Of a stretch of DNA of 64,000 nt, positions 668-11,778 are shown piece by piece. How positions within the stretch are numbered: the first letter of the stretch is position 1; every line of letters begins with the position of its first letter. Origin of the DNA: Methanobacteriota archaeon (lineage in GTDB: Archaea > Thermoplasmatota > Poseidoniia > Poseidoniales > Poseidoniaceae); the NCBI GenBank assembly GCA_002719815.1, contig PBET01000024.1, forward strand, positions 3,393 to 67,392, given 5' to 3'. The notes beneath the pieces are model-generated. The model did not search any database, was not told the DNA's origin, and worked only from the letters and a program-made list of their open reading frames with translations. The position numbers were made by a program, and so were the translations under genes.

Positions 668-2865
668 TGAATCCCCTAGACGCTGTTCGGCATTGTCTCA
701 TGGAACATGAACTCTTAGGGGAAGATGCTGCTAATTTTGGTTCACCAGATGAAATCATGCTGGTTTCTGCAGGACCTGTCAGCCATCTCTCTCGCTTCTC
801 ATTACTCTGTGGGCCTTCAACAAAAAGGGTCATCGTCCGACAACCGTCGAGAGAACAAGTACCTGTAGCAAATCCTCATTCACCTTTGGCTGGAGAAATT
901 GATTTGGCCACCAAGTTGCCATTTACATTTGATCGAGAGACGTGGGATGGTTCGTCCTGGAAACCTGATGTGTCGTACACAAGTGCATCGCTTTCAACTG
1001 GATTGAGGAAAATATGTACATGTTCCAACGGGCAATTCAAACCGGATGATTCGACAGATGTCCCCTTCCATGGTCCATTTTGGACGGGCGCATTATCGTA
1101 CAATTTGGTACAAATGACGCAACCATTACGATTACAATATCCTCCAAATGAAGGCGAACTACTCTGCGTATTGTGGGAAATCGAACACTGTATTGTTCAT
1201 GATAAGGAGCGTGATGCGTTGGTTGTTTTATCGACAGATGTTCATTGGAAGGAGAGAGCGAACGAGTGTCTATCCAATGCTCCACTGGAAACAGTTCCTT
1301 TCGATGTTTTGATTGGCGAGAAACCATCTTCAAATTGCACCGATGCCGAACACGAAGAAATTGTCAAAACTGTTCAATCATCAATCGTTGATGGTCAACT
1401 CTACCAACTTAATTACGGTCGTTCATGGGAAGGAGCGGTTTTGACAGAACCATGGGATGTCTTCTGTCATTCAATTGCATCAAATCCTGCCCCATATTCT
1501 GGTTTTTTGCACATGAAAGATGAATCGTTTGCACTCATTTCTGCTTCACCAGAATCACTTCTTGCAACTGAGAAAGGCATCATCACAACAGCTCCGATCA
1601 AAGGGACTGCACCAAGGGGCGCATCAGAGGCCGAGGAGATACTTCTTCGTGAAGATATGATTTCTGATCGTAAGGAACGAGCTGAACATCGAATGCTGGT
1701 TGACCTTATGCGAAACGATGTCGGACGCATCTCAAAGCCAAATCAAGTCTGGGTGGAACGATTTGATGTTGAAGCCTATGCTGAAGTTCAGCATCTCGTT
1801 TCACGAATCAAAGGTCGATTGAACGATGGTATCGATGTTTTTGACGCGATTGAAAACGTATTTCCTGGAGGTTCGATTACAGGATGTCCGAGGACCGTTG
1901 TCTGTGCAGCAATCGATGAATTGGAGCAATACCCTCGCTCGTTTTGGACTGGATCGATGGGTTGGTTCGACCCTTCAACTGGTGATTCATCTTGGAATAT
2001 TTTGATACGAACGGCTGAACTTCACAAAAGGGACGACGGTTGGACATCTAGAGTTACAGCAGGAGGAGGGATTACCATTGAATCAAATCCAAAATCGGAG
2101 GTTGCTGAAGCCAAGTGGAAAGCAAATGGACTCCTACGATCATGTGGTTGGATTGACGACACTGTTCTCGCTTCCCCTGTCAAACATCTTGCCATTCATT
2201 CTCTACCACTCGAAAGCCAGCAATCGAATCACGAAGTTTCATTCTCAATTCATACCGATGAACTTGTGAAGAATGCGGTCTTGTTAATCGATAATTTGGA
2301 CTCATTTACCTACAACATCGCTCACGATATTTGTGGACTTGGCCATCATGTGAACATTGTTTCTGGAAGGGATCATTCACATCACTCCGCTCAGGAACTT
2401 CTCGAAGAATTACAACCATCCCATGTCGTTCTAGGACCGGGGCCAGGATGGCCACAAGACAGTCCCTTGACGATGGATTTCGCAAAGCAAGCACTTGAAG
2501 GCAATACCCCTCCACTTCTCGGGATTTGTCTTGGTCATCAAGCAATAGGTCTTGCATCTGGTCTCGACGTCGCCCCTAGTCCGATTGGACCCGTTCATGG
2601 CACACCCGTCAAGTGTTTACACGAAGGAAATGGTTTGTTTGAAGGCTTAGATGAACTATCGGTGACCCGTTACAATTCCTTAACATTGTTGACAGTTGAA
2701 TGTCAAGGACATGATAGCATTGTTATTGATGCAACCGATGACACGAAGTCGCTTGTTCTTGGCCTTCGCTCAACACAAGCATCCGTCTTTGGCGTACAAT
2801 TCCATCCAGAATCGGTTGGCAGTCAATCAGGTGTACAAATCCTGTCAAGATTTCTTGAATATTGA
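667..2865 (+). CDS. pabB: Aminodeoxychorismate (or anthranilate-type) synthase, component I fused to a C-terminal class-I glutamine amidotransferase
   Basis: Chorismate-binding motifs are present (SPESLL, IKGTAPRG, SDRKERAEHRMLVDLMRND, FPGGSITGCPR, FWTGSMGWF). These are followed by GATase motifs (LLIDNLDSFTYNI, GICLGHQAI, QFHPES). The likely start is ATG 667; the track start at 649 is TTG. Confidence 0.85.
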   Translation: MNPLDAVRHCLMEHELLGEDAANFGSPDEIMLVSAGPVSHLSRFSLLCGPSTKRVIVRQPSREQVPVANPHSPLAGEIDLATKLPFTFDRETWDGSSWKPDVSYTSASLSTGLRKICTCSNGQFKPDDSTDVPFHGPFWTGALSYNLVQMTQPLRLQYPPNEGELLCVLWEIEHCIVHDKERDALVVLSTDVHWKERANECLSNAPLETVPFDVLIGEKPSSNCTDAEHEEIVKTVQSSIVDGQLYQLNYGRSWEGAVLTEPWDVFCHSIASNPAPYSGFLHMKDESFALISASPESLLATEKGIITTAPIKGTAPRGASEAEEILLREDMISDRKERAEHRMLVDLMRNDVGRISKPNQVWVERFDVEAYAEVQHLVSRIKGRLNDGIDVFDAIENVFPGGSITGCPRTVVCAAIDELEQYPRSFWTGSMGWFDPSTGDSSWNILIRTAELHKRDDGWTSRVTAGGGITIESNPKSEVAEAKWKANGLLRSCGWIDDTVLASPVKHLAIHSLPLESQQSNHEVSFSIHTDELVKNAVLLIDNLDSFTYNIAHDICGLGHHVNIVSGRDHSHHSAQELLEELQPSHVVLGPGPGWPQDSPLTMDFAKQALEGNTPPLLGICLGHQAIGLASGLDVAPSPIGPVHGTPVKCLHEGNGLFEGLDELSVTRYNSLTLLTVECQGHDSIVIDATDDTKSLVLGLRSTQASVFGVQFHPESVGSQSGVQILSRFLEY

Positions 2866-2914
2866 GCGCATGGTTGAAATGACGGCAGTATTTGGGTAGG
2901 AATGAGGGAAGAAG

Positions 2915-3301
2915 ATGCCAGTCTGTCGACTCTGTTCTGGAACCTATCCACGCGAATTCTTCATTCATGGGAATGGACCAAAAACACAGGTCTGTGCACG
3001 ATGTGGTGTTGAGCACGGTTATATCAGTAAAGATGAGGCAACAAATCTCTACGATGATACACTGAAGTCTTCACGTCTCAGCACTGTTACTCGCCGATAT
3101 CGGCCCTTCCTCTACCTCACAGTTCTGTGGACGATTTACATCACAACAGTTCGAAGTATTGACCCATGGGGCTGGTACATGCTGATTATGCTCGCAATTC
3201 TAACACTCGCTTCAATTGTGCTCTTTTTCACCAGTGCTGCAAAGTTTTCCAGCACACTTGCTCGGCTAACGCCTGATTTTGAGCGCCCAAAAGGCCATTG
3301 A
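2915..3301 (+). CDS. Small membrane protein with an N-terminal CxxC...CxxC zinc ribbon and 2 predicted TM helices
   Basis: The N-terminus reads MPVCRLCSG...VCARCG, followed by two hydrophobic stretches (FLYLTVLWTIYITTV, YMLIMLAILTLASIVLFF). Confidence 0.4.
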   Translation: MPVCRLCSGTYPREFFIHGNGPKTQVCARCGVEHGYISKDEATNLYDDTLKSSRLSTVTRRYRPFLYLTVLWTIYITTVRSIDPWGWYMLIMLAILTLASIVLFFTSAAKFSSTLARLTPDFERPKGH

Positions 3302-3304
3302 GAT

Positions 3305-4600
3305 TCACTTTGAATGAATCCTTAGAACGTCTCCATCGGAGAGTTCATGTTCAGCCCCAACGATTCGTCGTGTACGTCCATCAACACCTTTGATGAAACC
3401 ATCTCCGAGATCGGAGTGCACTTTGTATGCCACTTGTTTGGCTTGGATACCATTCTGAACCACAAAAGCATCAGGCAATACGTTACCATCCCCATCGGTC
3501 CAATGGGTTTCATCTTGGACAGGATAAACAACAATACGATCGAGTTCCTCAAAAAGAACCTGATCAAGAAGATTGGTCAATCCAGTTCCTTGTAATTTAT
3601 TCAAACGTTCACCAAGAACCGACATGCCTTTCATTTGCGCATCGTTCATCGGCTGATTTTGATTTAATTCAAATGAAGTTGAACCGGGTGTATAGGAAAT
3701 AAATCCTGCCTTGCTCGCTTGACGGAGCGCTAATTCTGTTTCTGCCGAGCACGGTGTAAATTGATCGAGTGTGGCTTGAAGGTGGTCGAGTACACCATCA
3801 GGGGCCATGTCCGCTTTGTTCCCTGCAATAAAGATAGGAAACAACTGCTTCCTCAATGAAGAGGCAAGGAGAATCAGTACATCATCGGACCAATCCCATG
3901 GAGATGTCATGTCGCTATGGAGTTGGGTGAATGCATCAAAGGCGCGTTGACACGTGGAATCTGTTGCTCCCAATCCGGATAGGCGCTCTTGCAGGAATTG
4001 AGTGAATCCCTTCACACCTTCGGCTTGAATTCGACGAGCGCCGCGAGACCAGCCCTCTTTGACAAGCCCTAGAATCCATGCATCAAGTTCCTCTGTAAGG
4101 AAGGTGATTTCTGCAAGTGCTTGTTCAATCGCTTGTTCTTTTGTTGCTTTCAATCCTGTTGGATTTCCTTCAGCATCGGTTGTTCCTGCAACATCAATGA
4201 CCTGAATCAATGCATCGCATTCTGCTAAATCGGACAAGAAAGCATTCCCTCGGCCTCGTCCTTCACTTGCTCCAGGAACCAAGCCTGCAACATCGACCAA
4301 CATGCAAGGAACGTATCGCCTGTGCCCTTCACAAGAGCCTGTGCGTGGTGTGCAGATACTGCCTCCACGATCATCACTGAGTTGGCTACGACCGTCTTGT
4401 TCAAGTCGCTCTCGTAGGGACATACAGGGGCAAGGTTCTCGACTTGGAACAAAGGAAAATCCAACGTTTGGTTCAATCGTACAAAACGGATAATTTGCAA
4501 TATCGACTGGAATCAATGTCGATGCTGCAAAGAAAGTCGATTTGCCGACGTTTGGTTTACCAACCAATCCAATTCGCACGGTTTGACCGCCTCGCTTCAC
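3305..4600 (-). CDS. Obg-family GTPase (YchF/DRG-like) with C-terminal TGS-like domain
   Basis: G1 is GLVGKPNVGKST, G3 is DVAGLVPGASEGRGRGNAFL and G4 is AGNKADM. The C-terminus GDVLRIHSK is TGS-like. The GTG start overlaps the upstream stop (GTGA at 4597-4600). A Cys-rich insert (PCPCMS...ICTPRTGSCEGH) lies between G2 and G3. Confidence 0.8.
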   Translation of the reverse strand: MKRGGQTVRIGLVGKPNVGKSTFFAASTLIPVDIANYPFCTIEPNVGFSFVPSREPCPCMSLRERLEQDGRSQLSDDRGGSICTPRTGSCEGHRRYVPCMLVDVAGLVPGASEGRGRGNAFLSDLAECDALIQVIDVAGTTDAEGNPTGLKATKEQAIEQALAEITFLTEELDAWILGLVKEGWSRGARRIQAEGVKGFTQFLQERLSGLGATDSTCQRAFDAFTQLHSDMTSPWDWSDDVLILLASSLRKQLFPIFIAGNKADMAPDGVLDHLQATLDQFTPCSAETELALRQASKAGFISYTPGSTSFELNQNQPMNDAQMKGMSVLGERLNKLQGTGLTNLLDQVLFEELDRIVVYPVQDETHWTDGDGNVLPDAFVVQNGIQAKQVAYKVHSDLGDGFIKGVDGRTRRIVGAEHELSDGDVLRIHSK

Positions 4601-6558
4601 TCTTCTTCGACGACACCAGAGCGTACTCGTGCAATGGCGATGTCAAGTTCTGGGAGGTTGACTCGACCGTCTCCGTCAAGATCGATGAATTCCATGAGAC
4701 GTGCGATATCCCATGGAGGCAAATCTGCAATGTCTGTACTTCGTAGTGCCTGCTGGAGTTCATAGCCATCGATAAGGCCAGAGTCATCCAAATCGATTGA
4801 ACGGAAGAATTCAAAGATGCTCATGTCCTTCTTTGCGAGATAGTCTGACAGCATCTCAAGTTCATTCTTTTCAACTGGGAATTCATCAACTTCATCGTTG
4901 TGGAGGGTTGATGAAACTTCGATAATGGTCATTCCGCCATCGTCTTCAACATCGGCTCCAACGACCAAAACGGTATCGACACCAACGCCGCGTTGCAAGA
5001 GCTTTCGAATCGAAGATTCACCACGTTGCATGGAATAACGACTGATGTCCGAGGTTGTCGAAACGGTTGTATCGACTTTCATTCCTCCAATGGATGTTCG
5101 AATGAGATTCAAGAACAAGAGAATGACACCAATCGAAGCGAAGTAGAAGAGAACGGATGCGGTTAAACTGAATCCACCATCTGTCATGACCACGTCTTCA
5201 CTACCGGAATCGAGAAGTGCTTTTTCGGTGAAGTCACCCATCAACTTCGCAACTGTCGAAGTGACGGCACCAAAGGCGATGAGCATGGTTGACAGGGATG
5301 CAGATGATGAGGATGCGAGTTTACGGCCGCCTGCTAATGGATAGGATTCTGCGACACAGGCGACGGCCATAAGTCCGCCAACAGTCCACATGAAACCAAC
5401 ATCAACGGTTGTGGCCATGTCATTCAGTGCGCCAAGGCCAATGAACACGTCAAGTGAAGTGAAGTATCCTCCAATTGCATACAGTGGGAAGAAGACCATT
5501 GCAAGCGTTGCCGCTAATGCGCCTGGTCGAGATACAACACCTGTTGCATTGCCAAGCGAGGTCATGATGATGTTCACCGAACCTGCCATAATTGGCAAGA
5601 GGGCAAGCGTCATGAGGATGGCCCCGAGATTCTCGAGGAGTGTCCCAGCATCAGCCGATGATAGCATGAATGGAGGCAAGGTGAAGAAGAGAAGAAGAAG
5701 GCTTGCCTTCGTCATTGAATCGGACCAAATCGGGCGACTTGCTGCTCGAGGAACTACGTGATATGCAACCGAGAAGATAAGGGCGATAAGCGCCCAAGAT
5801 TGTGTCATTCGCTCTCCGAGCCAAACTGTTTGGGTTGAGTCAGCCAGTTCCCCAAAGAATCGGAATTGTGAACCGAAGATGAACGATGCAAGAGCCATGA
5901 ACATGAACCAGTTGCTTGCTGAGATGATGTCGCCCTTTCGTTGTGCCACTGTTAGGAGAACGTTGATCATCACTGCAATGATGATAAATGAGCGCAATGC
6001 ATGCATGAAGAGGTCTTGAATAAGGGCTTCATTTGCGGCTGTTAAATCGATAACAAGGCCAAGGATTGTTGGTAGAAGCATCGATGAAATGGTGAGGACT
6101 GAAAACAACAATCCAGTCAAACTGGCATTGGCTTCGCTTGCGAGACGGCCTGCTCCTGCTCGTGCTGCAGCAACCAAGCCACCGCCGACGAGAATCGAAA
6201 TTAGACCAGTCATCAAGGTCACATCAACGAATGTAGCCAACGCGCTTCCATCGTCATATTCCCATCCAATGCTTGCGAGCGAATCGAGGGCTGTAGCATC
6301 ATAATCGTGCCATAGTGCGAGGAATGTGCCGATTGCTGCAAAAGTTAGCCAGATCATTCCAAGGTTCATCCACGTCTTCGATCCACTTCCTTTGTCATCG
6401 TTGAAGAGATCAACAATTCCAGCTGGTGCTTTGTTGAGCAGAAAAAGGCCAAATTGACGCATCGGTTCGGCCATGTTTCCAATCCCACGTTGAAGATAGA
6501 ACGTAGCAAAACCAACCACCGTGAAGAAGAAGAAAAGTGCGATAAATACTGCATCCAT
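4597..6558 (-). CDS. Polytopic membrane protein (at least 12 hydrophobic segments) with a C-terminal pair of canonical EF-hand Ca-binding loops
   Basis: The EF loops DLDDSGLIDGYE (nt 4759-4794) and DLDGDGRVNLPE (nt 4648-4683) both fit the 12-residue D-x-D-x-[DS]-G-x-[IV]-[DN]-x-x-E pattern. The N-terminal roughly 480 aa are strongly hydrophobic. Confidence 0.7.
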   Translation of the reverse strand: MDAVFIALFFFFTVVGFATFYLQRGIGNMAEPMRQFGLFLLNKAPAGIVDLFNDDKGSGSKTWMNLGMIWLTFAAIGTFLALWHDYDATALDSLASIGWEYDDGSALATFVDVTLMTGLISILVGGGLVAAARAGAGRLASEANASLTGLLFSVLTISSMLLPTILGLVIDLTAANEALIQDLFMHALRSFIIIAVMINVLLTVAQRKGDIISASNWFMFMALASFIFGSQFRFFGELADSTQTVWLGERMTQSWALIALIFSVAYHVVPRAASRPIWSDSMTKASLLLLFFTLPPFMLSSADAGTLLENLGAILMTLALLPIMAGSVNIIMTSLGNATGVVSRPGALAATLAMVFFPLYAIGGYFTSLDVFIGLGALNDMATTVDVGFMWTVGGLMAVACVAESYPLAGGRKLASSSSASLSTMLIAFGAVTSTVAKLMGDFTEKALLDSGSEDVVMTDGGFSLTASVLFYFASIGVILLFLNLIRTSIGGMKVDTTVSTTSDISRYSMQRGESSIRKLLQRGVGVDTVLVVGADVEDDGGMTIIEVSSTLHNDEVDEFPVEKNELEMLSDYLAKKDMSIFEFFRSIDLDDSGLIDGYELQQALRSTDIADLPPWDIARLMEFIDLDGDGRVNLPELDIAIARVRSGVVEEE

Positions 6559-6568
6559 TCATATCACC

Positions 6569-6841
6569 TCAATCTGCTAGGACCTCGCCTGCCAGTGTCG
6601 ATACAATCGCTCCAAGTCCAATGATGAAACCAAGCAGGTAGTACCAAATTCCTGAACCTCCAAGATTGGACATCAGTGGCACGATGTCGCCGATAACCGG
6701 GATGTTATCCCAGCCGAAGATGGTGCTGAAAAGACCAAACATTCCGATGGTTACAACCGAAAGCAAAACAAGAATAATTCGGCTTGATGATGGTTCTGCA
6801 GTTCCGATGACTGCATCAGGGAGTTCTGTGCTATTCGACAT
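6569..6841 (-). CDS. Small 2-TM membrane protein
   Basis: This is a 90-aa ORF with two long hydrophobic segments. It sits immediately upstream of, and co-oriented with, the EF-hand membrane protein. Confidence 0.4.
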   Translation of the reverse strand: MSNSTELPDAVIGTAEPSSSRIILVLLSVVTIGMFGLFSTIFGWDNIPVIGDIVPLMSNLGGSGIWYYLLGFIIGLGAIVSTLAGEVLAD

Positions 6842-6941
6842 ACCTTGACCTCATGCGTCCAAGATGGACATGCCTGCGACTCAAAGCGCGGTGATAAACA
6901 TTCACCAAGAGCATCATTGAACCGCTCAATAACTCGGCTAT

Positions 6942-8108
6942 TCACGGCGAGCGAAGAATGTTGGTAAGAGAACCACGTCTTGGCATTGAAGTTCCAAGTG
7001 GGACCGGAATGGTTCTGTCATTCATTAACTCCTGATTCCATTGATTTTTGCAGACACAATCCAATCCTTGAAACTCATCCAGTGAACCAGAAACAGCATA
7101 ACGCTCGATCGCTGCAACAACTTCAGCATCGCATTCTCCACAATTGTGAGAGCCACGTATCTTTCCACCGGCAGTTGGATGGATAATCAAACGAGAAATT
7201 TGATCATCATCTCCATTCATTCCGCCATTTGGATGGACGATGTGGTGACTCTGTTGAATGAGTTCGACCAAGGACCAAAGCCAGGGAGGGCGATATTCAC
7301 GATGGCGATGAAGTCGATCGATAACAGTCCCTCGCTGGATGTTCATTGGATTGATGGAAATCTCATCGCTCTGTTCTGCAACAGCTTCAATCCACTTTAC
7401 ACAATGATCGAGTGCATCAGCTTCGCTCATAAACGGGGGTTTGAACATCAAATAGGTCTTGACTCGGAGATTGAATTTCTTGAGGCGTTCGACTGCTCGA
7501 TCCCACGATGCTGCAGAAAATCCTTTGTTCACGTGAAATCGTAGGACTTCATCATCGTAGGCTTCCAAGCCAATCGCTACCGTAAAATTTGGATTGATTG
7601 ATGTGGCCCAAGCCAATTTCTCTTCAGTTAGTTGTTCGGTTCGACTCTCGACAATGAGTTCCTTTCCAAGTTCGAAACAATCTCGTAAGACCGTTTCTTG
7701 GAAATCAACCGGGATTTCTCGATCTTCAAGCAACGAACCAGATGTGTAAACCTTGACCATCGATTGGCCTTCAAAATTAGAAAATTTATCCTTCGCGTGT
7801 TGCCATTGCGCATGAAGATCTTCGCTTGTGACATCATCGCGTGTATCGTTAAAATAGCCACAAAATGTACAACCTGAGGACCACCACCAATGGCAACCTT
7901 TGGTCCGAAGAATAACCGTAACCGCTGAGCAGGGTTCACCTTCAGTCGTCATCTCTGGTGTGGAATACACCGTTGCAGGAAACGATGCATCCCATGATTG
8001 TTGACGTTCTTTTGCCCATGGCGTATTTGCAGGGGCTTTGACGAGATCGTGGATTTTGAGGCTCTTTGAGGAATCCCCTAACATCGTAAGAGGTTTCTTC
8101 GATGACAA
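6942..8108 (-). CDS. Radical-SAM-related protein of the TIGR01210 / RaSEA-like (archaeosine biosynthesis) type
   Basis: The Cys cluster GCHWWWSSGCTFCGYFND is followed by a TIM-barrel-like alternating pattern. The assignment is from memory of the family motif. The track start is TTG 8108; an alternative ATG lies at 8084. Confidence 0.5.
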   Translation of the reverse strand: MSSKKPLTMLGDSSKSLKIHDLVKAPANTPWAKERQQSWDASFPATVYSTPEMTTEGEPCSAVTVILRTKGCHWWWSSGCTFCGYFNDTRDDVTSEDLHAQWQHAKDKFSNFEGQSMVKVYTSGSLLEDREIPVDFQETVLRDCFELGKELIVESRTEQLTEEKLAWATSINPNFTVAIGLEAYDDEVLRFHVNKGFSAASWDRAVERLKKFNLRVKTYLMFKPPFMSEADALDHCVKWIEAVAEQSDEISINPMNIQRGTVIDRLHRHREYRPPWLWSLVELIQQSHHIVHPNGGMNGDDDQISRLIIHPTAGGKIRGSHNCGECDAEVVAAIERYAVSGSLDEFQGLDCVCKNQWNQELMNDRTIPVPLGTSMPRRGSLTNILRSP

Positions 8109-8120
8109 TCTAGCAACCCC

Positions 8121-8975
8121 TTATTCTTCTTCGGAAATTCTTCGAAAGAGAATATCCGAACCCGCTTTAACAAACTGGCCTTTTGGATGCTGAGGATGGT
8201 TGTCTTCTGCAGAGATGACTTGAGGCTCATAGAGTGCTGCAGGAACTCGAACATCGACTCGGCTGCCGAGACGGATCATTCCGTAACGCTCGCCTCTTCG
8301 AAGTGTATCTCCAATCCCTTTCCAAGGAACAATCGTTCGAGCAAGCGCACCCGATATTTGCATGACTTCAGTGCGCTCTCCATCCTCTGCTTCGAAAACA
8401 GTACGGACACGTTCATTGTATTCGCTTTCTTTGCGATAGGCAGGCGCAAAGGGGCCGCGACGACGTCCTTTGCCCGTTCGATGTTCCATTGCAATAATCC
8501 TCGCTGAACGTGGCGCTCGGTTGACGTGAACGTCAAGAGGTGACATGAAGATGGCAACACGCCAAACATCTGAGTCATGAAGCGTTCCTTCCACGGGCTC
8601 GAATCGCTGTTCGGTTTCAAAGGTTAGAGGATTGTCACATGCTTGAGGATACCAGTCGCCCGTATGCTCATCGGTCTCAATGCTCTGCTCATCTCGCTCA
8701 GTTTGCGATGGTCGACGACCATTGGCTCGCTCACGACGAACAAACATCACGTGTCCATCTGCAGGTGAGACCAAAATGCCTGAATCTTGAGGAATTGGGC
8801 GATCAGGATCTCGCCAGAAATTAGCAAAGAAAACTGCAACCATCAAACAAAGAACGCCTAGGAGCGGTAACAGTCCATTCAATGAGTCAAGATAGATGCC
8901 GCCAACAAGAATTGCAACACCTGCAAGAGCGAAGGTTGCTACTGGAGCATGACCTCCCTGAGCAAGGCCTGCCAA
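8121..8975 (-). CDS. psd: Phosphatidylserine (archaetidylserine) decarboxylase-like proenzyme
   Basis: An N-terminal TM region is followed by VSPADGHV, LDVHVNRAP and the self-cleavage-type motif LGSRVDV. Confidence 0.7.
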   Translation of the reverse strand: MAGLAQGGHAPVATFALAGVAILVGGIYLDSLNGLLPLLGVLCLMVAVFFANFWRDPDRPIPQDSGILVSPADGHVMFVRRERANGRRPSQTERDEQSIETDEHTGDWYPQACDNPLTFETEQRFEPVEGTLHDSDVWRVAIFMSPLDVHVNRAPRSARIIAMEHRTGKGRRRGPFAPAYRKESEYNERVRTVFEAEDGERTEVMQISGALARTIVPWKGIGDTLRRGERYGMIRLGSRVDVRVPAALYEPQVISAEDNHPQHPKGQFVKAGSDILFRRISEEE

Positions 8976-8986
8976 GATGGTTCACC

Positions 8987-9787
8987 TCAGTTGTCAGCCC
9001 ATGGGTCGACATCGGAGTTCCAGGTTGCATCTGCTTCAGCGGGTTCTTCCGCTTCTTCAGCAGGTTCCTCTGCTTCTTCTGCGACCTCTTCTGAATCCTC
9101 TGATGTTTCTTCTGGGGCTTCTTCTTCGGCTGGCTCTTCGACAGCTTCTTCTTCCGAAGGTGCTTCTTCAACAACGCCTTCTTCAATGAGTGCTTCAGCT
9201 TCCTCGACGGTCATTTCAGCAGCACGTGCTTCGACCATCTCATCCATACGTTCTGTGAACGCTCGAGACATGTGTTGAGATTCTCGTTCGGCTTCAACCG
9301 CACGCTCGATCATCTCATAACGTTCCTTAATGGCCTTGTTGAGGTCTTCAAAGAGTGTCATGTGAGCAACATACCAATCATCACGAGCCTTCATTTCAGT
9401 AACTGCGAGTTTCAAATCATTGTCAAGTTCTTCCGCAATTCCAAACACTTTCCCAAGACGATCTTTCTCTCGAGAATACTTCTCTTCCATTGTTTGGAGA
9501 GCAGGTTCCAAATGCTCAACACGCTTGTCTGCTTTTGTAGCCTTCATCTCAAGTTCACGAATACGGAAATCTTTCTCCGCGATAAGTGATTCTTGCGCTT
9601 CACGCTCAATCTCTTTGTCGATAATTTCTTTTTCGAGAACTTCGATCTCTGCTCGTGCATCAACAAGTTCCTTTTCTTGTGTTTCATACGCTGCAAAGAG
9701 TTTCTTCAGACGGTCTGTTTCAGTGGCGAGTGCCTCTTCAAGCTGGCCGATTCGAACTTCGGGAGTGATGGTTCCTTCTTCACTCAT
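8987..9787 (-). CDS. Coiled-coil protein with an extremely acidic E/A/P-rich C-terminal tail
   Basis: Heptad-like E/K/L-rich sequence runs for about 190 aa. It is followed by EEAPSEEEAVEEPAEEEAPEE... and ends ATWNSDVDPWADN. Confidence 0.5.
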   Translation of the reverse strand: MSEEGTITPEVRIGQLEEALATETDRLKKLFAAYETQEKELVDARAEIEVLEKEIIDKEIEREAQESLIAEKDFRIRELEMKATKADKRVEHLEPALQTMEEKYSREKDRLGKVFGIAEELDNDLKLAVTEMKARDDWYVAHMTLFEDLNKAIKERYEMIERAVEAERESQHMSRAFTERMDEMVEARAAEMTVEEAEALIEEGVVEEAPSEEEAVEEPAEEEAPEETSEDSEEVAEEAEEPAEEAEEPAEADATWNSDVDPWADN

Positions 9788-9897
9788 TTTTTCACCCGGA
9801 GGTATGCCTCCACATCAACCCAGCCGCCTTTACCCTATGAAGCCGACGCCTCGTTGAGAACGATTGCACACTTCTCGGTCCTATGTTCTATGCACGA

Positions 9898-11778
9898 CTA
9901 GAATTTCTTTTTAGGACCACCAGGGAATAACCAGCGACTGGATTTTTCAGACGTTGCTTTGTCTTCGCTCTTCTCATATTTTTCCCTTCTAAAGAATATG
10001 AGCGATAGGAGGGCAATGATTGCTATTGCTGCAATCATGAGGTACATTGTGTTGGCATCGAGAGAGGATGCTTCTTCTGAGCGCGTGCCATCATTCGGGT
10101 ATGCATCCGTGTTATCCCCAACGCCATCGCCATCGGTATCGGTTGTTTCAGATGCATCATTTGGAAACGCATCAAGAGAATCCACTGTTCCATCGCCATC
10201 GGAATCTCTTTCGATTATTTCAATCGCATTCTCAACAACAATTGTTTCTCGGATACCGCCAATTTTCAGCAACGTTATTTGGAGATCGTACATCGACATT
10301 TCTGCGAATTCTGGTGCCTGAATCTCAACCTTCCATACACTATTTTCCGAGGCAGTGACTCTACCGCGTAAGTCTGATTCATCTTCCCAATCGCCTTGAG
10401 GTGCTGGACCCGCCACTGAGGCGAATGGAGCGATGTTGTAATCGATTGGTTGAGGCGTGTTTTTGTCGCTTCCTGAACCAATTCCTAATGGTCCATATTT
10501 ACCGCGACCCCAGCACGATACCGACCCGTTTTCATACAGACCACAGACATGGTCATAATTCACGCTCAAATCAACGATGTTTGTTGGCCCTTCAACGAAC
10601 ATTGGTGTAAGATAAATACCGCCAGTGACACCAATCCCAAGGCGGCCAAAGTGATTGTGCCCCCAACAGTATAGACTACTGTTTTCTAAGATAGCACACG
10701 AACTATGTGGGCCTACTGAAACCGATACTGCTGATGAACTGTCTGGCAATTGAGCATAGACTGGAATGAGTCGATTGGTGGTAGTATTCTCTCCAAGTTG
10801 ACCATAATTGTTCAAACCCCAGCAAGTGATTGAGCCGTTGTCAAGTAGAGCACATGAATGATGGTCTCCAACAGAAAGATCTGTCGCAGCGCGCCCTTCA
10901 GGTAACTCGACATTTGAAGACGGGGTATGAATCGTATCGCTCGTATCGCCATTTCCAAGTTGACCCACATTGTCACGGCCCCAGCACATAACGCCTCCAT
11001 CGTCAAGAAGTATACAGGTGTGTGTTGCTCCAGGCTCGACTTTCACAACTTTCCGATCCGATGGAGTCGTAATTGTTTGAGGCGTGTATTTGTCGCTTGT
11101 ATCCAAATTTCCGTTTCCTAAAGCTCCATATGAGTCAAGACCCCAGCAGGTCAAGTTGTCATCTTCTAAGATTGCACACGTGTGCTTAAGTCCCATACCG
11201 ATTGATTTCACACCCTTACCATCTGGAAATTGTACCTTCACGCTGGGAGATTTGTAGGTATTGGTTGAGTCATCACCGGCCTGCCCGTCTTCATTGAATC
11301 CCCAACAACTTGCAGAGTTGTCATCGAAAATGATGCACGTTCGCAATTGTCTCGCATAAATCTGGTCTACGCTTTGACCTTCAGCAATTGAAACGAACGA
11401 AGTAGGCTTATTCAAATTCGTTGCATCGCCACCATCGCCAAGTTGACCATAATTATCGAGCCCCCAACACATAGCTGAGCCATTTTCAAGGATTGCACAA
11501 CTATGCGAGTTTCCAGTGGCAAGTACAGATGAATGTGCTTTAGAAGCCATCGTATCCACTGAGACGAATTCATAACGAATTGTCGAGATACCAACATAAT
11601 CACTGAGATCAATGCTACATTCCATTGACTCGGCTTGGTTTACGTTAGCCTTCGGGCAATCTAATTCGAGTGATGTGCTTTCTTCAGCAATTGTTTGAAT
11701 AGGAACTAGAAGCAGAATTACAAGACAAATTCCTGCCTGAAGGTGAAGCAACCTGCCTCTCGACGGGGTTTTGACCAT
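9898..11778 (-). CDS. Surface protein: signal peptide, 7 RCC1 repeats (beta-propeller), thrombospondin-type-3-like Ca-binding repeats, C-terminal TM anchor
   Basis: There are seven CWG-x-[DN]-x-x-G-x-LG-x-G repeats (for example MCWGLDNYGQLGDG and MCWGRDNVGQLGNG). DSDGDGTVDSLDAFPND and DTDGDGVGDNTDAYPND follow. The C-terminus is MIAAIAIIALLSLIFF plus a basic tail. Confidence 0.8.
   Translation of the reverse strand: MVKTPSRGRLLHLQAGICLVILLLVPIQTIAEESTSLELDCPKANVNQAESMECSIDLSDYVGISTIRYEFVSVDTMASKAHSSVLATGNSHSCAILENGSAMCWGLDNYGQLGDGGDATNLNKPTSFVSIAEGQSVDQIYARQLRTCIIFDDNSASCWGFNEDGQAGDDSTNTYKSPSVKVQFPDGKGVKSIGMGLKHTCAILEDDNLTCWGLDSYGALGNGNLDTSDKYTPQTITTPSDRKVVKVEPGATHTCILLDDGGVMCWGRDNVGQLGNGDTSDTIHTPSSNVELPEGRAATDLSVGDHHSCALLDNGSITCWGLNNYGQLGENTTTNRLIPVYAQLPDSSSAVSVSVGPHSSCAILENSSLYCWGHNHFGRLGIGVTGGIYLTPMFVEGPTNIVDLSVNYDHVCGLYENGSVSCWGRGKYGPLGIGSGSDKNTPQPIDYNIAPFASVAGPAPQGDWEDESDLRGRVTASENSVWKVEIQAPEFAEMSMYDLQITLLKIGGIRETIVVENAIEIIERDSDGDGTVDSLDAFPNDASETTDTDGDGVGDNTDAYPNDGTRSEEASSLDANTMYLMIAAIAIIALLSLIFFRREKYEKSEDKATSEKSSRWLFPGGPKKKF

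What the first reader, a model, noticed from the sequence alone, without database searches (positions are those of the whole stretch)
3305..6841. Operon linking a polytopic membrane protein with two canonical EF-hands to an Obg-type GTPase
Three co-oriented genes are involved: a 90-aa 2-TM protein, a 653-aa membrane protein and a GTPase coupled to it by a GTGA overlap (4597-4600). The membrane protein ends in two textbook 12-residue EF loops (DLDDSGLIDGYE and DLDGDGRVNLPE). Paired canonical EF-hands on an archaeal integral membrane protein are uncommon. One membrane segment (SVAYHVVPRAASRPIWSDSMTKASLLLLFF) resembles, from memory, the Y-Y-x-V-P-R-x-x-G-R-P-[LI]-[YW]-S segment of cbb3/NOR-type haem-copper oxidase subunit I. 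However, the protein has only three His in its membrane part, so it could be a cofactor-less derivative of that fold. The GTPase also carries a Cys-rich insert (PCPC...C...C). This may be a Ca-responsive membrane signalling or transport unit.
Basis: partly seen in the sequence, partly recalled or inferred. Interest (0 to 1): 0.5.

Follow-up and report, generated by a model that had tools for sequence, protein, structure and literature searches.

The report
Cofactor-free oxidase-fold protein with EF-hands
A core membrane protein of the abundant marine archaea Poseidoniales has the fold of the catalytic subunit of respiratory haem-copper oxidases but has lost every haem and copper ligand, has gained a cytoplasmic calcium-binding EF-hand pair, and always sits between a small two-helix membrane protein and an Obg-like GTPase.

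The parts
6892..6904 (-). Promoter-like BRE/TATA element GTGAATGTTTATC (family consensus AATG[TC]TTA[TA]), 51-63 nt upstream of the small gene's ATG (57 nt for the TTTAT core at 6894-6898)
   Evidence: The AA and TTA columns are invariant in 77 unique upstream regions from MGIIa and MGIIb loci. Archaeal promoter function is inferred from sequence and position only.
6857..6869 (-). Short inverted repeat or leader hairpin GTCCA-TCT-TGGAC between the TATA-like box and the Shine-Dalgarno-like GAGGT
   Evidence: A stem of at least 5 bp lies at the same offset in 66 of 77 unique leaders. The stems are lineage-specific (TGACCCC, TGTCCA, CATCCC, AGATTGCC, CACCC), and the mean folding z is -1.7 against shuffles. 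RNAalifold on the MAFFT alignment predicted nothing. There is no Rfam match.
6569..6841 (-). 90-aa two-TM protein, the conserved first gene of the unit (putative small subunit)
   Evidence: ORF; two TM segments. It lies directly upstream (from -4 to +13 nt) of the HCO-like gene in all 10 lineages compared and in 78 of 78 evaluable reference genomes. Shared motifs are EPxSS ... P..G..VPL ... SGIW[YF][YF] ... G ... GE. No Pfam or NCBIfam hit.
5074..6558 (-). Membrane domain of the 653-aa protein (res 1-495): an extra N-terminal helix TM0 (res 2-24), a conserved cytoplasmic segment (res 25-57), and a 12-TM HCO subunit I fold without metal ligands
4960..5052 (-). Conserved post-TM12 cytoplasmic module (res 503-533, SDISRYSMQRGESSIRKLLQRGVGVDTVLVV), fold unknown
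   Evidence: Present in all 23 diverse family members, including those without EF-hands. G524 and T529 are invariant; G513, R518 and D528 are nearly invariant. The AF2 model has low confidence here.
4645..4821 (-). Cytoplasmic EF-hand pair (res 580-638). Loop 1 is at 4759-4794 and loop 2 at 4648-4683
3305..4600 (-). YGR210/PH0525-type Obg-like GTPase (G domain + YGR210-like G4 domain + TGS). The likely true start is GTG 4579
   Evidence: NF007171 420.7 bits against a cutoff of 387. Pfam YGR210-like_G4 1.3e-25, MMR_HSR1, TGS. 1WXQ E=4.3e-87. It lies downstream of the HCO-like gene in 74 of 74 evaluable genomes and in all divergent lineages where the contig extends past the HCO-like gene.
4331..4432 (-). 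Four-Cys cluster in the GTPase between switch I and G3 (C57, C59, C83, C90), a possible Zn knuckle
   Evidence: Conserved in all 10 lineages aligned. The same loop in P. horikoshii PH0525 is 19 residues shorter.
6942..8108 (-). RaSEA (archaeosine radical-SAM protein), a conserved upstream neighbour separated by a gap of ~80-105 nt; probably a separate transcript
   Evidence: TIGR01210 289.8 bits against a cutoff of 212. Upstream in 71 of 72 genomes. A co-oriented radical-SAM or RaSEA-sized gene is also upstream in L007, L008, L012, L014 and L016.

Best explanation
The 653-aa protein descends from a C-family (cbb3 CcoN) or NOR-type haem-copper-oxidase catalytic subunit. It keeps the 12-helix, three-fold pseudo-symmetric scaffold and its cytoplasmic loop motifs, but it has lost all haem and CuB ligands and no longer does redox chemistry (shown by sequence and predicted structure). 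It has gained an extra N-terminal helix, a strongly conserved cytoplasmic N-terminal segment, a conserved ~30-aa module after TM12, and, in most lineages including this one, a cytoplasmic pair of canonical EF-hands (shown). Other lineages add a SAP domain or have no tail domains at all. It is co-inherited with a dedicated 2-TM protein that is translated immediately before it, and is most likely transcribed with it from a conserved promoter-like box. The same transcript probably continues into the YGR210/PH0525-type GTPase (inferred from 4-63 nt spacers and conservation). The most likely working model, which is inference only, is as follows. The HCO-like protein and the 2-TM protein form an inert membrane platform whose conserved cytoplasmic face and tail dock cytoplasmic partners, and in EF-hand-bearing lineages Ca2+ binding changes the tail's conformation and so modulates that docking. 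The co-transcribed GTPase is the obvious candidate partner, but this is not demonstrated.

For: Homology: hhalign 97.3%, E=6e-11 over 471 columns. NCBIfam gives a weak hit to the CcoN/O fusion, E=0.0017. Family members P0133 and P0144 score 43 and 42 bits on Pfam COX1, above the gathering score of 34.8. Shared C-family motifs are T..RK....I..NWF, YYxVPxxxxRPxYS and NxxxT..G.

Ligand loss: the positions map to F110/V111, E249, F291, F297, M298 and V385/V387. No His, Cys or Met column is conserved in at least 12 of 23 members.

Topology: 15 K/R on the inside and 0 on the outside.

EF-hands.

Gene block: kept in L007, L008, L010, L012, L014 and L016 (21-35% identical), with downstream flanks of Band_7, PGM or ribosomal L12/L10/L1 in place of PabAB. 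Spacers are -4 to 13 nt and 9-63 nt. The promoter-like box precedes the small gene only.

Distribution: 124 Poseidoniales species genomes, Thalassarchaeaceae, and only 123 representatives at 50% identity among 1.84 billion proteins.
Against: There is no experimental evidence for loss of cofactors, for Ca binding, for a complex with the 2-TM protein, or for any contact with the GTPase. Within Poseidoniaceae the whole ~14-kb neighbourhood is syntenic (PabAB 65 of 65), so adjacency there is uninformative; the case rests on six divergent lineages. By my own knowledge of the Ygr210 subfamily (not tested here), the GTPase and RaSEA are housekeeping genes present in archaea that lack this family, so the pair of membrane genes may simply have been inserted into a pre-existing cluster. 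EF-hands are missing in several lineages, so Ca sensing cannot be the family's core function. Few charged or polar residues are conserved inside the membrane, which fits a scaffold but is weak evidence. The AF2 model is of moderate quality, and the tail (res 496-563) has low confidence.
Confidence: 0.55

Rival explanations
1. The adjacency to the GTPase (and to RaSEA) is conserved gene order without functional coupling. The 2-TM and HCO-like genes form the real unit. The YGR210-type GTPase carries out whatever general role it has in other archaea (presumed, by analogy with other Obg-family members, to be ribosome-associated) and merely shares a transcript or neighbourhood.
For: The GTPase is a close orthologue of P. 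horikoshii PH0525 (E=4e-87), an archaeon outside the set in which this HCO-like family was found. Many OBG-family members act in ribosome regulation or biogenesis (PMC8629797). Entire-neighbourhood synteny in Poseidoniaceae shows that order is conserved there even for unrelated genes. The spacer to the GTPase (9-63 nt) is longer and more variable than the 2-TM to HCO-like spacer (-4 to 13 nt).
Against: The block survives at least three different rearrangements of the downstream flank across MGIIa and MGIIb. The genes are always co-oriented, and no conserved promoter-like box was seen before the GTPase. The GTPase has a lineage-conserved four-Cys insert that is longer than in PH0525.
Confidence: 0.4
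2. The ligand-free scaffold works as an ion or proton (possibly Ca2+) channel or transporter. It would use relic HCO proton pathways or the cavity vacated by the haems, and would be gated by the cytoplasmic EF-hands.
For: Some residues aligned to the cytoplasmic half of TM6-TM8 of CcoN are retained (Y266, T283, N329, T333). EF-hand gating of channels has precedent in eukaryotes (general knowledge). The CuB His is replaced by Glu249 in many close relatives.
Against: No charged intramembrane residue is conserved across the wider family; E249 varies to G, Q, W, D, S, K and others. The former ligand sites are filled by hydrophobic residues (F, M, V). No transporter is known with this fold. EF-less lineages exist.
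Confidence: 0.12
3. It is a functional haem-copper oxidase or NO reductase with unconventional ligands.
For: It has the HCO fold and C-family loop motifs. One JGI fragment of a relative is auto-annotated as HCO subunit 1. P0133 and P0144 keep a His near the TM2 haem b position.
Against: All seven catalytic positions are replaced in the window protein. No potential ligand column is conserved family-wide. H84 and H267 lie on opposite membrane faces according to the CcoN alignment and the predicted topology. No CcoO, CcoP, NorC or CoxII-like partner is in the cluster.
Confidence: 0.02
4. In SAP-bearing relatives the protein is a membrane-to-nucleoid (DNA or RNA) tether, and the window protein is a derivative that has lost that end.
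For: 13 of 23 diverse members end in a SAP domain (Pfam PF02037, best E=1.2e-9), including both MGIIa and MGIIb lineages. The tail is cytoplasmic.
Against: The window protein and its whole clade (653-659 aa) lack SAP and end in ...EEE. The shortest members have neither SAP nor EF-hands. Nucleic-acid binding by SAP in archaea has not been tested.
Confidence: 0.1

Closest known systems
cbb3-type cytochrome c oxidase subunit CcoN/FixN (C-family HCO; PDB 3MK7 chain A)
   Different: All six His ligands and the cross-linked Tyr are lost. No CcoO, CcoQ or CcoP genes are present. It has an extra N-terminal TM, a conserved cytoplasmic N-terminal segment, a post-TM12 module and an EF-hand tail. The partner genes are a 2-TM protein and a GTPase.
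cNOR NorB (PDB 3O0R, 4XYD)
   Different: Same ligand losses as against CcoN. No NorC is present.
HCO-homology (HCOH) proteins including NnrS (Pei, Li, Kinch & Grishin 2014, Protein Sci 23:1220; cited; content recalled from my own knowledge because the paper was not readable here)
   Same: Non-oxidase members of the HCO superfamily with 12 TM and a reduced ligand set.
   Different: As I recall, most three-unit HCOH families keep two His and are proposed to bind one haem, and they are linked to denitrification or NO detoxification. This family conserves no His. It gives no Pfam NnrS hit in 23 members, carries EF-hand and SAP tails, and sits in a different gene context. I could not check whether it is among the families in that paper.
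Other ligand-depleted HCO-like proteins found here: P0218 (486 aa) and the P0237 CcoN-FixO fusion (NCBIfam PRK14485-like)
   Same: Nearest out-of-family sequence neighbours of the profile (E=2e-7 and 2e-4). P0218 also lacks all seven catalytic positions. P0237 keeps only the bis-His haem b pair.
   Different: Both still pass Pfam COX1 clearly (81 and 167 bits). They have no EF-hand, no TM0 and no post-TM12 module. P0237 is fused to a c-type cytochrome subunit.
P. horikoshii PH0525 (PDB 1WXQ), Ygr210 subfamily of the OBG family
   Same: The GTPase gene product is its orthologue: E=4e-87 over the full length, with the same G domain, helical insert and TGS architecture.
   Different: The window protein has a loop 19 residues longer, with four conserved Cys, between switch I and G3. 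It is also encoded next to the HCO-like gene.

Membership tests
Haem-copper oxidase superfamily, subunit I (fold and homology level) | 12-TM core with three-fold pseudo-symmetry, structurally superposable on solved subunit I | tested here: met
Haem-copper oxidase superfamily, subunit I (fold and homology level) | Significant sequence or profile similarity to COX1/CcoN | tested here: met
   The query itself gives no Pfam COX1 hit. The family profile against CcoN gives hhalign 97.3%, E=6e-11. Family members P0133 and P0144 exceed the COX1 gathering score; 3 of 23 members hit COX1 at E<0.1.
Functional haem-copper oxidase / NO reductase | Six conserved His (two for low-spin haem, one for high-spin haem, three for CuB/FeB) | tested here: not met
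   The positions map to F110/V111, E249, F297, M298 and V385/V387. None is conserved as His in 23 diverse members.
Functional haem-copper oxidase / NO reductase | Cross-linked active-site Tyr (TM7 in the C family) | tested here: not met
   It aligns to F291. The column holds F, Y, M, A, L, V, T or I across the family.
Functional haem-copper oxidase / NO reductase | Electron-entry partner subunit (CcoO/CcoP, NorC or CoxII) encoded alongside | tested here: not met
   No FixO, COX2 or cytochrome c domain in any neighbour, in the window or in 10 loci. No other HCO-type ORF in the 64-kb window.
NnrS / HCOH 12-TM families | Match to the Pfam NnrS model, or two conserved His for one haem | tested here: not met
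   No NnrS hit at E<=0.1 in 23 members. No conserved His column. Comparison with the other HCOH families of Pei et al. 2014 was not possible because the paper and its sequences are not held.
EF-hand (canonical, paired) | 12-residue loop with oxygen ligands at positions 1, 3, 5, 9 and 12 (Glu at 12), Gly at 6, a hydrophobic residue at 8, and two adjacent hands | tested here: met
   The loops are DLDDSGLIDGYE and DLDGDGRVNLPE. PF13499 scores 33.5 bits against 30. The loop residues are invariant in 32 homologues.
EF-hand (canonical, paired) | Actual Ca2+ binding | not testable with these tools
   Requires ITC, 45Ca overlay or a structure with bound metal.
Obg-like GTPase, Ygr210/PH0525 subfamily | G1-G4 motifs, the YGR210-like G4-containing domain and a C-terminal TGS domain, with a score above the curated family cutoff | tested here: met
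   GKPNVGKS, DVAGLV and NKAD can be read in the sequence. NF007171 scores 420.7 against 387. PF08438 1.3e-25; TGS 1e-8. 1WXQ E=4.3e-87.
Obg proper (ObgE/CgtA) | N-terminal glycine-rich Obg fold, with a score above the equivalog cutoff | tested here: not met
   TIGR02729 scores 64.5 bits against a cutoff of 280, and only the G domain matches.
Operon (single transcription unit: small gene, HCO-like gene, GTPase) | Co-orientation, short spacers and one upstream promoter, conserved across divergent genomes | tested here: inconclusive
   Co-orientation and spacers of -4 to 63 nt hold in 10 lineages, and a conserved TATA-like box lies only upstream of the small gene. No transcript data are available. 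The sigma-70 and terminator scan does not apply to archaea and was at background level.

The most novel reading that the evidence does not exclude
Poseidoniales have turned a dead respiratory oxidase subunit into a Ca2+-switched membrane docking platform. The platform would recruit or regulate a conserved Obg-like (Ygr210-type) GTPase, and in SAP-bearing lineages nucleic acid as well. That would be a calcium-to-GTPase signalling link at the archaeal membrane with no described counterpart.
Probability: 0.12. Interest if true: 0.8.

Novelty: new variant of a known kind. Interest (0 to 1): 0.55.

Why it matters
HCO subunit I is one of the most intensively studied membrane enzymes. A full-length 12-TM version with no metal ligands, fixed as a core gene in one of the most abundant archaeal orders of the surface ocean, would be a clear case of a respiratory enzyme scaffold reused for a non-redox role. 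It also warns annotators that COX1-like hits in Marine Group II genomes (one fragment is already labelled HCO subunit 1) must not be counted as terminal oxidases in metabolic reconstructions. The cytoplasmic canonical EF-hand pair adds a concrete, testable candidate for Ca2+ sensing in archaea, where little is known. The invariable neighbourhood gives the poorly characterised Ygr210/PH0525 GTPase a first candidate membrane partner.

Tried and rejected
- A profile search of the close-family membrane alignment against PDB sequences found nothing. Homology became visible only through structure, hhalign and divergent members.
- The search for related loci with the wide alignment A4 failed because it has no conserved 7-10-column stretch. 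A1 was used instead and reached only Poseidoniaceae.
- The afdb50 fold library was not available.
- Pei et al. 2014 (PMC4243994) is not held, and 'HCOH' returns no papers, so overlap with their families could not be checked.
- RNAalifold on the MAFFT alignment of upstream regions predicted no structure because the hairpin is out of register between clades.
- Rfam found no match in 2800-9900.
- The sigma-70 promoter and intrinsic-terminator scan was at shuffle background and does not apply to archaea.
- I considered an AF2 linker-fusion test of HCO-like + 2-TM or tail + GTPase and dropped it. The paired orthologue rows come from loci that the tool does not accept, and a single-sequence chimera would be uninformative.
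- I considered re-modelling the tail alone and dropped it, because the same alignment had already given pLDDT<50 for res 496-563.
- I rejected a bis-His haem site formed by H84 and H267. According to the CcoN alignment and the predicted topology they lie on opposite membrane faces, and neither is conserved in the wider family.


Full report
**1. Observation**

The 90-aa product has two hydrophobic segments. The 653-aa product has about 13 and contains His only at 84, 186, 267 and 553.

Pfam finds an EF-hand pair at residues 580-638: PF13499 scores 33.5 bits against a gathering score of 30. phmmer aligns the same stretch to calmodulin and CDPK EF pairs. The two loops, DLDDSGLIDGYE and DLDGDGRVNLPE, satisfy the canonical pattern, and their ligand positions are invariant in 32 homologues that are 48-91% identical.

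The GTGA overlap exists, but orthologous GTPases start MRIGLVGK/MKIGLVGK. An in-frame GTG at 4579 reproduces that N-terminus and has GAGG 10 nt upstream. In nine other lineages the spacer is 9-63 nt. I therefore regard the overlap as a longest-ORF artefact.

**2. Organism and neighbours**

The upstream genes are RaSEA (TIGR01210, 289.8 bits) and an archaetidylserine/phosphatidylserine decarboxylase. The downstream gene, on the + strand, is a PabA/B-type fusion. Identical and near-identical proteins come from marine metagenomes and are named Candidatus Poseidoniaceae, Poseidoniales or Euryarchaeota archaeon. This is a Marine Group II archaeon.

**3. What the membrane protein is**

NCBIfam gave a weak hit (E=0.0017) of residues 165-510 to a cbb3 CcoN/O fusion model. 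I then ran four tests.

- *Transitive sequence homology.* An exhaustive profile search of 1.84 billion representatives found only 123 related clusters. Among them, the divergent full-length members P0133 and P0144 exceed the Pfam COX1 gathering score, at 43 and 42 bits against 34.8.
- *Profile against a genuine CcoN.* I fetched CcoN from a Mesorhizobium plasmid. hhalign of the family profile against it gives 97.3% probability, E=6e-11, over 471 columns. Further C-family motifs also align (T..RK....I..NWF, and N...T..G in TM8).
- *Ligand audit.* The haem b His of TM2 aligns to F110/V111. The first CuB His aligns to E249, the cross-linked Tyr to F291, and the CuB His-His to F297-M298. The TM10 His-x-His falls in a gap, or on V385/V387 by anchoring on the following conserved Pro. 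Across 23 members spanning 21-53% identity, none of these columns is conserved as His, and no His, Cys or Met column is shared by even half of the family. H84 and H267, conserved only in the close clade, sit on opposite membrane faces according to the CcoN alignment and the predicted topology.

My conclusion is that this protein is a cofactor-free derivative of a C-family/NOR-type subunit I. That rests on sequence and predicted structure, not on biochemistry.

**4. Topology**

Using the model's helix boundaries, the loops predicted to be cytoplasmic by homology to CcoN carry 15 K/R, and the opposite loops carry none. There is one extra N-terminal helix (TM0), so the N-terminus is outside and the C-terminal tail, with the EF-hands, is cytoplasmic. 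That is the same compartment as the GTPase. SAP domains at the end of many relatives agree with a cytoplasmic tail.

**5. Family anatomy**

All members share four parts: TM0; a conserved cytoplasmic segment (F39, K43, A44, D50, G57); the 12-TM core; and a ~30-aa module after TM12, Yx[LI]xxGxT[ST][IV]RxL[LM]xxG[AV][GS]xDTx[IL]. The rest of the tail is modular:

- EF pair only, as in the window clade, ending in ...EEE.
- EF pair plus SAP.
- Two EF pairs plus SAP.
- EF pair plus coiled coil plus SAP.
- SAP only (P0144, P0150).
- Nothing (P0145, P0154-P0156, P0159, P0170).

EF-hands are therefore an accessory of the scaffold and not its core.

**6. Distribution**

124 species-level reference genomes encode a close relative, and nearly all named ones are Poseidoniales/Poseidoniaceae or unclassified archaeal MAGs (two titles carry bacterial bin labels), including the original MG-II chromosome CM001443.1. 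A divergent cluster is named Candidatus Thalassarchaeaceae, and others Thermoplasmatota or Euryarchaeota archaeon. Every source calls the protein hypothetical or 'EF-hand domain-containing', except one JGI fragment that is auto-labelled HCO subunit 1. No paper describing it was found. Meheust et al. 2022 (PMC9258230) note only that Poseidoniaceae- and Thalassarchaeaceae-specific protein-family modules contain calcium-binding domains.

**7. Gene context**

Within Poseidoniaceae the trio is universal: small gene 78 of 78, GTPase 74 of 74, RaSEA 71 of 72. PabAB is also universal at 65 of 65, so this set measures general synteny only.

The informative cases are six divergent lineages (L007, L008/L009, L010/L011, L012/L013, L014/L015, L016; 21-35% identical). 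All keep the order small 2-TM gene (81-97 aa), HCO-like gene, GTPase. Five of the six also have a co-oriented radical-SAM or RaSEA-sized gene immediately upstream; the L010/L011 contigs end before that position. The downstream flank is Band_7 genes, phosphoglucomutase or the ribosomal L12/L10/L1 cluster.

The 2-TM protein is a true orthologue set with shared motifs. Spacers are -4 to 13 nt (small to HCO-like) and 9-63 nt (HCO-like to GTPase).

**8. Upstream region**

Upstream of the small gene, in the 80-105 nt gap after RaSEA, a box AATG[TC]TTA[TA] lies 55-66 nt before the ATG. Its AA and TTA columns are invariant in 77 unique sequences. I read it as the BRE/TATA of the unit, which is inference. 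It is followed by a short inverted repeat at a fixed offset whose sequence differs by lineage: 66 of 77 have a stem of at least 5 bp, and the mean z is -1.7. RNAalifold on the MAFFT alignment saw nothing, and Rfam has no match.

**9. The GTPase**

The GTPase is not Obg proper. It belongs to the Ygr210 subfamily of the OBG family, the classification given in PMC8629797. NF007171 scores above its cutoff, and the YGR210-like_G4 and TGS domains are present. It is an orthologue of P. horikoshii PH0525, PDB 1WXQ, at E=4e-87. The 'Cys-rich insert' is a loop between switch I and G3 that is 19 residues longer than in PH0525. It carries four Cys (C57, C59, C83, C90) conserved in all ten lineages and may be a Zn site.

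**10. Mechanism**

Shown: the fold, the homology, the ligand loss, the topology, the conservation of the EF loops, and the conservation of the gene block.

Inferred: the protein is redox-inactive. It pairs with the 2-TM protein. It presents a conserved cytoplasmic surface (the N-terminal segment, the three PRxxGR-type loops and the post-TM12 module) as a docking platform. In EF-bearing lineages Ca2+ modulates the tail.

Speculative: the docked partner is the co-transcribed GTPase.

The main rival is that the GTPase adjacency is only preserved order around housekeeping genes. A channel or transporter role and a nucleoid-tether role (in SAP-bearing lineages) are minor rivals. A working oxidase is essentially excluded.

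**11. Comparison and novelty**

The closest known proteins are CcoN and NorB, which share the fold and loop motifs but differ in ligands, partners, extra helix and tail. Conceptually it also resembles the HCO-homology proteins of Pei et al. 2014, which I know only from memory. Those mostly keep two His and are tied to NO metabolism, whereas this family keeps none and has a different context.

Two out-of-family neighbours found here show that ligand depletion has happened elsewhere. P0218 has lost all seven positions, and the P0237 CcoN-FixO fusion keeps only the bis-His haem b pair.

I rate the finding as a new variant of a known kind: a known fold and a known type of event (pseudo-enzyme), but an undescribed, order-wide family with an unusual domain fusion and gene partnership.

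Noticed in passing
window 6857-6904 (- strand); equivalent positions in L001-L096: A conserved TATA/BRE-like box, AATG[TC]TTA[TA], is followed at a fixed offset by a short inverted repeat whose stem sequence is lineage-specific (TGACCCC, TGTCCA, CATCCC, AGATTGCC, CACCC). It could be a 5' leader hairpin or a palindromic operator. There is no Rfam match.
   Followed up: partly
P0237 (752 aa) and P0218 (486 aa): These are the nearest out-of-family relatives, and both are ligand-depleted HCO proteins. P0237 is a CcoN-FixO fusion that keeps only the two haem b His and lacks the haem b3 and CuB ligands. P0218 lacks all seven positions yet scores 81 bits on Pfam COX1. Cofactor-poor HCO scaffolds may be more common than annotation suggests.
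   Followed up: partly
C-termini of family members; window 4600-4608: Family members without a SAP domain almost always end in an acidic ...EEE tripeptide (VVEEE, SNEEE, ESEEE, SHEEE, CDRCEEEE, IDEEE, LSEEE, MDEEE). This suggests a conserved C-terminal recognition motif.
   Followed up: no
Relatives P0043, P0045, P0059 (814-815 aa) and P0151 (857 aa): Some relatives carry a second EF-hand pair, or a long coiled coil, inserted between the post-TM12 module and the SAP domain. The cytoplasmic tail is therefore a hot spot for domain shuffling.
   Followed up: no
window 9898-11778 (- strand): A 626-aa secreted or anchored protein has RCC1-like repeats (CWGxNxxGQLG) followed by thrombospondin-type-3-like Asp-rich Ca-binding repeats (DSDGDGTVD..., DTDGDGVGD...) and a C-terminal TM. 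It is another Ca-binding-motif protein within 3 kb of the EF-hand gene.
   Followed up: no
window 2915-3301 (+ strand): A 128-aa protein has an N-terminal CxxC...CxxC zinc-ribbon-like motif and one or two C-terminal TM segments. It is convergent with the GTPase, with only 3 nt between the stop codons. It is conserved in Poseidoniaceae (52-93% identical) but is not part of the block in divergent lineages. It has no family hit.
   Followed up: partly
window 8987-9787 (- strand): A 266-aa highly acidic coiled-coil protein with an E/A/P-rich tail has no Pfam hit. A co-oriented gene of similar size lies directly upstream of the decarboxylase gene in several Poseidoniales loci (L001, L003, L004, L012 and L014), and it is detected by tblastn in the Poseidoniaceae reference loci.
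   Followed up: no
L016 2264-2944: A stand-alone 226-aa SAP + HeH-domain protein is encoded near the block in the most divergent lineage, whose HCO-like protein has no SAP tail. The SAP function may be split off there.
   Followed up: no
window 3305-4600 relative to the neighbours: Between Poseidoniaceae genera, the HCO-like membrane domain evolves faster (47-53% identity) than its neighbours RaSEA (74-76%), the GTPase (57-62%) and the 2-TM protein (56-63%). That is consistent with relaxed constraint after loss of catalysis.
   Followed up: no
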